Source: a virus
Lineage: Duplodnaviria; Heunggongvirae; Uroviricota; Caudoviricetes
DNA: 60,122 nt
IMG/VR virus record: IMGVR_UViG_2851938318_000007
Strand: one strand, 5' to 3'
Positions 1 to 3,000 of this stretch are shown here, piece after piece (positions within the stretch are counted from its first letter, which is position 1; each line of letters starts with the position of its first letter). Made by a program: the position numbers.

Positions 1-3000
1 CTATGATAACCGCGCATTCAACATGGCTACCTGTTCGTCGTTCATGTCATCAATCCACATACCGTAAATTTCATACACCATCTGCGCAGTTTCATGCCCC
101 ATTTGGCTGGCTATAAATGCCGGGTTCGCTCCTGCCGTCAACAGCCAGCAGGCAAAAGTATGCCGCGTATGGTACGGATTACGGCGGCGAATACCAGCAC
201 GTTTTACTGCTGCATTCCACCTTGCCCCCAAACTGCTTACCGAGTAATAAGGTTTTTGTTTTCCGTTACACACCCTGGGCATGAAAACAAAATGCAGTTT
301 TTGCTTTTCGGTTCTGCCGTACTCCCGATGATAAAAGGTGATTTCGCTTTTGCGATGATGCCCGGTCAGTTTGTATTGCTCCTTCAGTGCTTCAAGAGCA
401 GGCTGCAGTAGTGTTACCGTCCGGATCCCCGCATTTGTTTTTGGGGGACCGAACATATCCAGTATCGTCAGGTTTCTTCTGACATTCACAACTCCCTTCT
501 CGAAATCCACATCCTCCCACGCCAGAGCAGCCAGTTCCCCGTGACGAAGCCCGGAGTATACGGCAAATTTCCACAAGTTCTGGCTCTGTCCTTTTTCACT
601 TTCCATTAATGCATTGAATTCTGTTTTAGATAACGGGTCAGGCTTTATTCTGTTTCTCTGTAATTTCTTTACTCCTTCAAATGGTTTGGTTGATATAAAT
701 CCCGACTGATACGCAAAACGTAACAACGAACAGAGCAGGGCGATATAGTTATCAACTGTGCGCACGGTTCTTCCTTTTTTGTTGGATCTTGGATTATCCA
801 GGTAAAGCGTTTCTCCATGCAGCAGTTCATTCCGGTAGTTTAAGATATCGCTATAACGAATATGCGATATCGGAGTACTCTCACAAATTATTATCCTGAG
901 TGTTTTTAATTGTGATTTCGTTTTCTTCATTGTGTTTGTTGTTAACTCTGTTTCTTTAATTTTTGTCCAGATATCACAAAGCTCCCCGAACGTTTTTATG
1001 ACCCTCGTTGTCACCATTTTTGCCCCAGTGCTGGACTGGGGAAAACGTCTTAAATACTCAAACTCACCGGAATTGATTTCATGAACTATCAACGCTCTTA
1101 AATTCCCGGCTTTTTTAATGTTACTGTTAGTAACCTCCCAGCCTTTCAATGTTTCCCGACATCGTTTTCCTCGAAACATGAACCAGATGCGAATGTATTT
1201 ACCTCGAATCTCGACACCTGTTGGTAATTTAGACATATCATGAGTCTTTGATAAACTGATTTATCTTTGGATAGTTATACCAGATAATCCCTCGCTTACT
1301 GTCTGGCTTCCCTAAAGGAGATACTCGTTTGAAGTGGAAGCCTTCCACCCAACAGTTCTGGCGGTATGCTTCAATTTGTCTGGCCCCCAGACCAGTGCGA
1401 AGCATCAGGCCGTATTCAACCATCCACTCTTCATTAAAGATTACTTGTGCCATCGCATCACCTCTGGCAGGCGCCAATGTTAGACTTAAATTGACGCCCG
1501 ATGTTGATTATTAATAATCAGCTATGAAGTTTTAATTTGAATACAATGCAATTCACGAGGACTGAAGTTTCTCGCAATTAAAATTTATCAGTTTTACTTT
1601 CTGCTCTCTGGAAACGCCTGCTTCTTTTTTACCTGAGAGCATTTTTTCGCATTCTGATTTCGTTAGTTTAGATTTTGAATATCTTGTCCAGTTAGTAGGA
1701 GTGCCACCTTCCTTTTCAATAGTGGCGGTAATTTTATACATGAACACCTCCATTATTATTTCCAGTGGTTCGTTTATTTCATCGTTCGAGTGCTTCTTTT
1801 TCACTTCCACCATAACCGGTTCGGGATTCGCATCCGTTACACTTCGCTCGGTAATATCCTGAAATGGCTTTCACCGTTACTGATGGACAACCACAAAATG
1901 GACATGGTTTAACATTGTCATATCTCATAATTTTTCTCATAAAAATATTTCAAGTTGGCGGTGCATTACACCGCCAGGCTGAATTATTCCTCTGAATTAT
2001 CGATTACACTGTATTCCCCGGTTAATACAGAGGAATCTGCAGGATCGATTGTCAGTGGTTCCTTTTCATCCATTGATACTGCACGCTGGATCTCAATTGA
2101 TACGGGCAGATATTTGAACAGGCGACGAATAGCCGTTTTCTTTGCCATTTCTTCCCAGTGAGTTACCCACGGCCCGTTATTACCAGCTTTACTCTGGCTG
2201 CGCACCAGCTCAATCTGTTTGCGCGTCATAACTTCAAACTGAGTACCTCCGTCTTTCAGTCTTGCGACAGCATAGACGTGGGTAACAGGGGCATCTTCGT
2301 TTTCTCCTGGGCGGTGTATTAACTTTTCATCAAGGCCAAATTCGAAATTAAACTCGTCACCTTCACGGACAACACGGGCTGACAAGCTGGCGATTTGACC
2401 TGAACGGCGAGCCAGATCAATCATGCCGCGATAGCCAATGATTAGCTGAACGTTTTTTTTACCGCTCTTTTCGTTTTTATTACCAAAAGGCAGTAAATAT
2501 GCATGACCGAGGGCGCTACCGGGCTCAAGTCCGAGCTGTGAACACTGTACGATTGCACTGACAAAACTCATAGTGTCACAGTTTCCTAACGCCGGAACTT
2601 TACGAATTTCTGTGGTGGCGATACGGATCATACGTTCAGCCGTCATATGGCGTGGAAGAGCTGCTGCCAGTTGCTCTTTCATTGATGGCTGGTTAATAAA
2701 ACTAATCACGTCGTTATTTTTAATTGCTGCTGGTGCACGGTTTCCCTGAGTTTTTTGCAGATCGGCTTTTGCGATTGGTGGTTGCTTAGTCATTTGCATA
2801 TTCCTTAGCCCAGCGGGGCAGTGATAACGTCTTAATAGCTGGCCATTCATCGGTATTGAGGCAGTCAGCCAGGGTTCGCAGATTGCGGTGATATTCCAGC
2901 TGACCTGCCAGTTTTGCTTCTTCGCCCATCATGAAAATTTCAACCGGATAACGTCCGCATTCAATAGTTGTGCTGGCAACCAGAAAAACGAAAGTTGGCT

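What the first reader, a model, noticed from the sequence alone, without database searches (positions are those of the whole stretch)
1779..1940. ralR (type I toxin / restriction alleviation) appears to carry a premature TGA, while downstream ydaC-like start is intact
The reading frame MRKIMRYDNVKPCPFCGCPS...EALER hits TGA but remains coding-like for about 14 more codons, ending inside the next gene's start. This is consistent with a TGG to TGA change removing the C-terminal about 11 residues. RalR is known as a DNase toxin with an antisense sRNA antitoxin, so the truncation may be a detoxifying mutation.
Basis: partly seen in the sequence, partly recalled or inferred. Interest (0 to 1): 0.45.

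Follow-up and report, generated by a model that had tools for sequence, protein, structure and literature searches.

The report
Truncated ralR toxin allele in Rac prophage
The small prophage gene ralR really does carry an early stop codon here that removes the most conserved part of the protein, but the same allele sits in hundreds of sequenced E. coli genomes, so it is an ordinary natural loss-of-function variant and not a new kind of feature.

Summary
On the minus strand at 1779-1781, ralR has TGA where E. coli K-12 and eight other alleles, some only 91-94% identical, have TGG (Trp50). The stop is therefore derived. It removes 15 residues (64 to 49 aa), not about 11.

The lost part starts at the Trp of a W-N-x-R motif. 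That Trp is present in 213 of 213 Lar-family domains sampled, as conserved as the zinc-binding cysteines. Full-length ralR is under strong purifying selection (pN/pS 0.03-0.2). Loss or severe reduction of function is therefore the best reading.

The RalA antitoxin sRNA (1557-1735, +), both 16-nt pairing repeats and rcbA/ydaC are intact.

The allele is not private. The exact 61-mer occurs in 309 of 5426 complete E. coli genomes (O111:H8, O157:H7 and others). It is found only on the CGA-TGA haplotype, with none on the K-12 background, which indicates one origin. It spread with a nearly identical prophage left arm. RefSeq annotates it as an ordinary 49-aa RalR.

Whether the stop was selected as detoxification or is neutral decay cannot be decided here. 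Because UGA is misread by Trp-tRNA, low-level readthrough would remake the exact wild-type protein, so the allele may be leaky rather than null. Interest is low.

The parts
1779..1928 (-). Truncated ralR CDS as RefSeq annotates it (49 aa plus TGA).
   Evidence: ORF list and translation. In 100% identical genomes it is annotated as ralR, WP_001443846.1, 150 nt. NF007260 126.9 bits; PF14354 39 bits covering model positions 2-52 of 58.
1779..1781 (-). Premature TGA replacing Trp50 (TGG). The variant base is window 1779.
   Evidence: Alignments: 8 of 8 other alleles have TGG. Haplotype counts.
1734..1778 (-). Untranslated remnant of the ancestral ralR 3' end: 14 codons NKRTTGNNNGGVHV plus TAA. Still identical to K-12.
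1791..1806 (-). 16-nt repeat in ralR (AAGTGAAAAAGAAGCA, codons G41-A46), the published RalA pairing target. Intact, and upstream of the stop.
   Evidence: Pattern search; PMC4041452.
1557..1735 (+). RalA antitoxin sRNA, full length and identical to K-12.
   Evidence: Rfam RF02694, 225.1 bits (gathering score 170), model positions 1-179 of 179. NC_000913.3 annotation of ralA, b4714. No differences from K-12 in this interval.
1619..1634 (-). Second copy of the 16-nt repeat (AGGTAAAAAAGAAGCA on the rcbA sense strand). Its complement lies within RalA.
   Evidence: PMC4041452.
1553..1741 (-). rcbA/ydaC (DUF1187), 62 aa, intact. This is the common length; the K-12 69-aa form is the derived one.
   Evidence: PF06688, 132 bits, covering the whole 61-position model. 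Eight of nine alleles stop at this TGA. Annotated as WP_001302840.1.
1984..2793 (-). recT, the upstream neighbour in the same transcription direction. Intact.
   Evidence: Annotation of identical genomes.

Best explanation
This is the ralR/RalA/rcbA module at the left end of a Rac-family lambdoid prophage integrated next to ttcA in an O111:H8-type E. coli.

A single G-to-A transition changed the Trp50 codon of ralR (TGG) to TGA. Translation now ends after Arg49. The product keeps the four-cysteine zinc ribbon (C9, C12, C30, C33) and the first seven residues of the C-terminal helix. It lacks the family-invariant W-N-x-R motif and everything after it.

The most likely consequence is that the 49-aa product is inactive both as a toxin and as a restriction-alleviation protein. 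This step is inferred, not shown.

The antitoxin sRNA RalA, its 16-nt pairing sites and the downstream gene rcbA are untouched, so RalA is left with little or nothing to neutralise.

The mutation arose once, on the CGA-TGG haplotype. It has since travelled horizontally with an almost invariant prophage left arm into unrelated lineages (O111:H8, O157:H7, and animal and clinical isolates).

Whether it rose because it removed a self-harming DNase or simply hitch-hiked is not resolved.
For: Derived state:
- TGG is present in K-12 and in all 8 other alleles aligned, including ones 91-94% identical.

Single origin:
- Exact 61-mer counts in 5426 complete genomes are CGA-TGA 309, CGA-TGG 123, AGA-TGG 1122 and AGA-TGA 0.

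Horizontal spread:
- O157:H7 strain 86-24 differs from the window by 1 SNP in 3461 nt, and dog isolate E118 by 0.
- The window itself is 100% identical to O111:H8 genomes over 25 kb.

Functional importance of the lost part:
- The Pfam Lar domain score falls from 53.5 to 39 bits, and the match stops at model position 52 of 58.
- Among 213 domains from 144 family representatives (clusters at 50% identity or less), the W50 column is W in 213/213, N51 is N in 204/213 and R53 is R in 182/213. The four Cys columns score 213, 213, 204 and 211.
- The AlphaFold model places residues 43-58 in a single helix.
- Replacing residues 43-46 (EKEA to AIAE) abolished toxicity in K-12 (PMC4041452).

Full-length protein maintained elsewhere:
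- pN/pS is 0.03-0.2 at pS up to 0.36.

The rest of the module is intact:
- RalA scores 225 bits in Rfam, both 16-nt repeats are present, and rcbA covers the full DUF1187 model.
Against: - No experiment on a truncated RalR was found in the literature searched, so inactivity of the 49-aa product is inferred from conservation only.
- The family sample was collected by alignment to a Trp-containing query, which slightly favours Trp-containing hits.
- PGAP treats the 49-aa form as a normal protein, and it still passes the family cutoffs (126.9 against 113; 40.3 against 39.6).
- UGA readthrough could restore some full-length protein.
- One mutational origin gives no statistical handle on selection.
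Confidence: 0.75

Rival explanations
1. Selected detoxification. The stop was favoured because it disarms a DNase toxin that is harmful when the recET-ralR operon is expressed, for example during prophage induction. Its high frequency would then reflect that advantage.
For: - The allele makes up 309 of 432 genomes (72%) on its own CGA background and is present in several unrelated lineages.
- Its neighbours intR, xisR, rcbA, recT and recE are all intact.
- Other independent ralR-disrupting alleles exist in the protein collection: RalR::RcbA fusions P0012 and P0015, and frameshift P0005.
Against: - There was only one origin, with 0 cases on the much commonest K-12 background. The frequency can be explained by hitch-hiking on a successful prophage and by heavy sampling of EHEC.
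- Full-length ralR is otherwise strongly conserved (pN/pS 0.03-0.2). That argues the intact gene is usually beneficial, not a burden.
- The other disrupted alleles are rare (1-2 contigs each).
- Some genomes, such as E2865, carry a second full-length ralR alongside the truncated one.
Confidence: 0.25
2. Leaky hypomorph rather than null. UGA is misread at a low rate by Trp-tRNA(Trp). Because the ancestral codon was Trp, every readthrough event yields the exact wild-type 64-aa RalR. The allele would then lower the dose 25-fold or more but keep the function.
For: - UGA readthrough of about 2% at 37 C and 4% at 25 C, by competition between Trp-tRNA(Trp) and RF2, was measured in K-12 (PMC10570021).
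- The 14 codons after the stop and the overlap with the rcbA start are still identical to K-12.
- The stop is followed by A. From my own knowledge (Engelberg-Kulka 1981; Poole et al. 1995; not checked here), that is a comparatively weak UGA context.
Against: - The unchanged downstream codons are equally explained by a recent origin and by constraint from the rcbA ribosome-binding site.
- From my own knowledge, the readthrough figures come from K-12, whose RF2 (Thr246) is unusually weak. Wild strains should terminate better.
- There is no evidence that a few percent of RalR has any phenotype.
Confidence: 0.15
3. The 49-aa protein is a functional short isoform, so the stop is an inconsequential polymorphism.
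For: - It still scores above the curated cutoffs of NF007260, TIGR03655 and PF14354.
- RefSeq annotates it without a pseudogene flag.
- The zinc ribbon is complete.
Against: - The Trp is invariant in 213 of 213 family domains.
- Nearly all family matches extend to query residues 52-55.
- 14.5 bits of the Pfam score are lost.
- Mutating the helix just upstream of the stop abolished toxicity (PMC4041452).
- Homologues in Salmonella and Citrobacter keep ...RWN[KR]R....
Confidence: 0.08
4. Sequencing or assembly error at the TGA.
For: None found.
Against: The identical sequence is present in 309 independent complete genomes and in 3 records deposited as phage genomes. The exact protein is recorded on at least 1000 contigs.
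Confidence: 0.01

Closest known systems
RalR/RalA type I toxin-antitoxin system of the E. coli K-12 Rac prophage (Guo et al. 2014, PMC4041452). The gene is also known as lar, for restriction alleviation and modification enhancement (King and Murray 1995, from my own knowledge).
   Same: - Same locus and gene order: intR-xisR-rcbA/RalA-ralR-recT-recE.
- 99% DNA identity over 521 nt.
- RalA is identical, and both 16-nt pairing repeats are identical.
- RalR residues 1-49 are identical.
   Different: - Trp50 is TGA, so 15 C-terminal residues including W-N-K-R are not translated.
- rcbA is 62 aa here against 69 aa in K-12, because K-12 lost the stop.
- There is a one-base difference in the T-run upstream of ralR.
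RefSeq protein WP_001443846.1 (49-aa RalR, MULTISPECIES) in O157:H7, O111:H8 and other E. coli.
   Same: Identical sequence, with an identical flanking prophage arm differing by 0-1 SNP in 3.4 kb.
   Different: None. This is the same allele. The databases name it as an ordinary RalR and do not flag the truncation.
Lar family of small zinc-ribbon proteins (Pfam PF14354, TIGR03655).
   Same: The CxxC...CxxC ribbon and the start of the C-terminal helix. The scores are above the curated cutoffs.
   Different: It lacks the invariant Trp-Asn-x-Arg end of the domain.
Decayed chromosomal type I toxin genes, such as the inactivated hok homologues of K-12 mentioned in PMC4041452.
   Same: A toxin gene disabled by a point lesion while the antisense or antitoxin RNA gene persists.
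   Different: - The lesion here is a single nonsense codon at a Trp position, which is potentially leaky.
- The element carrying it is still spreading between lineages.

Membership tests
Lar family (PF14354 / TIGR03655) | Score above the curated family cutoff | tested here: met
   PF14354: 39 bits against 28.6. TIGR03655: 40.3 against 39.6, which is marginal. The full-length K-12 form scores 53.5 and 55.3.
Lar family (PF14354 / TIGR03655) | Four-cysteine zinc ribbon CxxC...CxxC | tested here: met
   C9, C12, C30 and C33 are present in the window product. The corresponding family columns are Cys in 204-213 of 213 domains.
Lar family (PF14354 / TIGR03655) | C-terminal helix ending in the invariant W-N-x-R motif | tested here: not met
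   TGA replaces the Trp codon, and the match stops at model position 52 of 58. Trp is present in 213 of 213 family domains. The DNA still encodes N-K-R after the stop.
RalR/RalA type I toxin-antitoxin system | RalA sRNA present | tested here: met
   Rfam RF02694, 225.1 bits against a gathering score of 170, full length at 1557-1735 (+).
RalR/RalA type I toxin-antitoxin system | 16-nt complementarity between RalA and ralR mRNA | tested here: met
   Both repeats are found, at 1791-1806 and 1619-1634, with 0 expected by chance. The sequences match the description in PMC4041452.
RalR/RalA type I toxin-antitoxin system | Full-length (64-aa) toxin ORF equivalent to K-12 RalR | tested here: not met
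   49 aa. NF007260 covers positions 1-49 of 64.
RalR/RalA type I toxin-antitoxin system | Toxicity or DNase activity of the protein, and its neutralisation by RalA | not testable with these tools
   This needs expression assays. The only published data are for the K-12 allele (PMC4041452).
Rac-family prophage left arm | Gene order intR-xisR-rcbA-ralR-recT-recE next to ttcA | tested here: met
   ORFs and the annotation of genomes identical to the window.

The most novel reading that the evidence does not exclude
The Trp-to-UGA change is a self-correcting, tunable attenuator rather than a dead gene. Readthrough by Trp-tRNA(Trp) regenerates authentic RalR at a few percent of the normal level. That rate rises under conditions that raise UGA readthrough, such as low temperature or high cAMP and tRNA(Trp) (PMC10570021). 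The widely spread EHEC Rac-type prophages would then keep a low, condition-dependent dose of the toxin and anti-restriction protein, and the allele was favoured for that reason.
Probability: 0.07. Interest if true: 0.45.

Novelty: already known. Interest (0 to 1): 0.15.

Why it matters
The matter is mostly practical.
- About one in six ralR-carrying complete E. coli genomes (309 of roughly 1900), including O157:H7 and O111:H8 pathogens, carry a ralR that lacks the family's invariant motif, yet it is annotated as a normal toxin.
- Conclusions drawn from K-12 RalR/RalA (DNase toxicity, fosfomycin phenotype, Lar anti-restriction) should not be transferred to these strains without testing.
- Toxin-antitoxin censuses that count this gene as an active toxin are probably wrong for them.
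- The comparison also shows that the K-12 reference is the odd one out for the neighbouring gene rcbA.

None of this changes understanding of how such systems work.

Tried and rejected
- **Sequencing error:** rejected.
- **Recurrent origin:** I tested for it by searching the TGA on the K-12 (AGA) background. There were 0 of 5426 genomes, so no convergence.
- **Repeat-mediated deletion allele:** I searched for the junction between the two 16-nt repeats (the P0012 type) in complete genomes. The result was uninformative, because the tool joins the two half-matches of undeleted genomes into one place.
- **Solved structures:** a sequence search found only chance matches. Foldseek of the AlphaFold model against the PDB found nothing significant; the best hit was the ELOF1 zinc ribbon at E 0.26. 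No structural argument about catalysis was possible.
- **New promoter for rcbA:** the G-to-A change could create one (ATGAAA, 16 nt, AATAAT; 9 of 12 matches). I rejected this as unsupported. The match is weak, the number of promoter-like sites does not exceed the shuffle expectation, and the predicted start would fall inside the rcbA Shine-Dalgarno sequence.
- **Literature:** searches for any discussion of a truncated ralR in O157 or EHEC found none. The phage records that carry the allele come from a survey of prophages in clinical isolates, not from demonstrated induction.
- **Selenocysteine or programmed recoding:** considered and dropped. The ancestral codon is plainly Trp, and I did not look for a recoding signal.

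Full report
**What is at the coordinates**

Window 1-5400 is the left arm of a Rac-family lambdoid prophage, with all genes on the minus strand:
- intR (1-1236)
- xisR (1238-1453)
- rcbA/ydaC (1553-1741)
- ralR (1779-1928, or from an upstream ATG at 1940)
- recT (1984-2793)
- recE (2786-5386)

This comes from the ORF list and from the annotation of genomes identical to the window. The first 25 kb of the window are 100% identical to many O111:H8 genomes, where the element lies next to ttcA.

It reads MRKIMRYDNV...EALER, then TGA, then 14 further sense codons (NKRTTGNNNGGVHV), and then a TAA that overlaps the rcbA start in ATGTATAA.

**Is the stop premature, and which state is ancestral?**

Over 521 nt the window differs from K-12 at five positions:
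- a T5/T6 run upstream of ralR;
- a synonymous CGA/AGA at Arg49;
- TGA against TGG at codon 50;
- TGA against AGA at rcbA codon 63;
- one intergenic base.

I aligned eight further alleles from complete genomes, some only 91-94% identical. All have TGG at codon 50 and a 64-aa ralR. The TGA is therefore a derived nonsense mutation. It removes 15 residues, not about 11.

The opposite holds for rcbA. Eight of nine alleles, the window included, stop at codon 63. The 62-aa product covers the whole DUF1187 model. The 69-aa protein of K-12 is the derived stop-loss form.

**How common is the allele, and how often did it arise?**

Exact 61-mers centred on the site were counted in 5426 complete E. coli genomes:

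| Haplotype | Genomes |
|---|---|
| CGA-TGA (the window) | 309 |
| CGA-TGG | 123 |
| AGA-TGG (K-12 type) | 1122 |
| AGA-TGA | 0 |

So the stop sits on one haplotype background only, which indicates a single origin.

Carriers include O157:H7 strain 86-24, O111:H8 strains, and dog, pig and human isolates. Their prophage arms differ from the window by 0, 1, 10 or 44 SNPs in 3461 nt, the last being a recombinant in intR. Identity this high across different phylogroups means the allele moved horizontally with the element.

Three records deposited as phage genomes carry it as well. They come from a survey of prophages in clinical isolates.

The exact 49-aa protein is on at least 1000 contigs and is RefSeq WP_001443846.1. 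It is named as an ordinary RalR with no pseudogene flag. I found no paper that discusses the truncation.

**What the truncation removes**

Pfam's Lar domain (58 positions) matches K-12 RalR end to end at 53.5 bits. It matches the window product only to position 52, at 39 bits. NCBIfam gives the same picture.

An exhaustive HMMER search with a 64-aa relative found 1690 family representatives. In 213 aligned domains from the best 144 proteins, the column of W50 is Trp in 213, N51 is Asn in 204 and R53 is Arg in 182. The four cysteine columns score 213, 213, 204 and 211. The Trp is thus as invariant as the zinc ligands. One caveat is that the hits were gathered with a Trp-containing query, which biases the sample slightly.

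An AlphaFold model (pLDDT 75) shows a beta hairpin at 17-30 and one helix at 43-58. The stop leaves only seven residues of that helix.

Guo et al. showed that recoding residues 43-46 non-synonymously abolishes toxicity (PMC4041452).

Among natural full-length alleles, pN/pS is 0.03-0.2 at pS up to 0.36, so the intact protein is maintained by selection.

Together these make loss or severe reduction of function the best-supported consequence. It remains an inference, because no truncated form has been assayed.

**What is retained**

- RalA is present in full (Rfam RF02694, 225 bits, 1557-1735 on the plus strand) and is identical to K-12.
- RalA is antisense to rcbA, not to ralR. It acts through a 16-nt repeat (PMC4041452).
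- Both repeat copies are intact, at 1791-1806 in ralR (upstream of the stop) and at 1619-1634.
- The module is therefore a probably disabled toxin gene with an intact antitoxin RNA and an intact overlapping protein gene.

**Mechanistic alternatives**

*Selected detoxification.* This is possible. However, there is only one origin, full-length ralR is strongly conserved elsewhere, EHEC genomes are heavily sampled, and some genomes carry a second full-length ralR (E2865). None of these favours selection over hitch-hiking. Independent disrupted alleles do exist (fusions P0012 and P0015, frameshift P0005), but they are rare.

*Leaky stop.* This is a more interesting possibility. UGA is read by Trp-tRNA(Trp) in competition with RF2, at about 2-4% in K-12 (PMC10570021). 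The ancestral residue was Trp, so any readthrough recreates authentic RalR. This may make the allele a strong hypomorph rather than a null. Wild strains probably read through less than K-12 (my own knowledge of the K-12 RF2 variant; not tested here).

*Functional short isoform.* Unlikely, given the invariance of the Trp.

*Sequencing error.* Excluded.

**Comparison with what is known, and verdict**

This is the published RalR/RalA (Lar) module of Rac, in an allele that is already in RefSeq and in hundreds of genomes.

It passes the family score cutoffs and has the zinc ribbon, RalA and the pairing repeats. It fails the full-length and W-N-x-R criteria. Toxicity cannot be tested here.

Novelty is low (already known). 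Interest is 0.15, mainly as a caution for annotation and for extrapolating K-12 results to EHEC.

Noticed in passing
window 1553-1555 (minus strand stop of rcbA/ydaC): The K-12 reference RcbA (69 aa) is the unusual form. Eight of nine alleles, including this window, have TGA at codon 63 and a 62-aa protein that covers the whole DUF1187 model. K-12 has AGA there, a stop-loss extension of 7 residues.
   Followed up: partly
window 1941-1988, minus strand (recT-ralR spacer): The spacer folds into a strong hairpin (-21.4 kcal/mol, z -4.66 against shuffles). The inner stem GGCGGTG/CACCGCC (1957-1975) is invariant in nine alleles while the loop varies. The T5/T6 difference from K-12 lies at its 3' foot, just before the upstream ATG. 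It could be an attenuator or an mRNA-stabilising element governing ralR expression. The simple terminator scan did not flag it.
   Followed up: partly
window 1938-1940 versus 1926-1928 (minus strand): An in-frame ATG four codons upstream of the annotated ralR start is conserved in all nine alleles. One allele (08A21CPO005) has TTG at the annotated start. Rac-SA53 annotates the longer form.
   Followed up: no
window 1619-1634 and 1791-1806; proteins P0012 and P0015: The protein collection contains RalR::RcbA fusion proteins. Their junctions fall at the A/G-rich repeats: P0012 at exactly the 16-nt RalA/ralR repeat, and P0015 at GAAAAGGAAGG. These are deletions between the direct repeats that remove the ralR 3' end and much of RalA. 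They are a second, rare route to ralR loss. My attempt to count them in complete genomes failed.
   Followed up: partly
RalR protein (model of P0004, 92% identical to K-12 RalR): The predicted fold is a small zinc ribbon plus one helix. The best, non-significant, PDB resemblance is to ELOF1/Elf1 (E 0.26), and NCBIfam gives a weak Elf1 hit. Nothing resembles a known nuclease fold, which is curious for a protein published as a DNase.
   Followed up: no
window 1755-1782, minus strand: The same G-to-A change that makes the stop turns ATGGAA into ATGAAA. This gives a weak -35-like hexamer 16 nt upstream of AATAAT, just before rcbA (9 of 12 matches). It is probably meaningless.
   Followed up: no
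NZ_AP018808.1 (strain E2865), 1870259 and 2524525: Some genomes carry two Rac-type ralR loci: the truncated allele and a divergent full-length one. In those genomes the truncation does not remove RalR from the cell.
   Followed up: no
Lar-family representatives P0065, P0070, P0086, P0117, P0171 and others: Many distant family members carry 2-5 tandem Lar domains in one protein of 100-430 aa, in contrast to the single-domain RalR.
   Followed up: no
window about 24488-25701 and about 32777-35199 (inferred from L017 = RM9131, identical to the window over 1-25000): In the matching genome the prophage has an IS1203 inserted in an antirepressor gene and a frameshifted portal gene, so the element is probably defective despite its near-complete gene set. 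I did not verify identity beyond 25 kb of the window.
   Followed up: no
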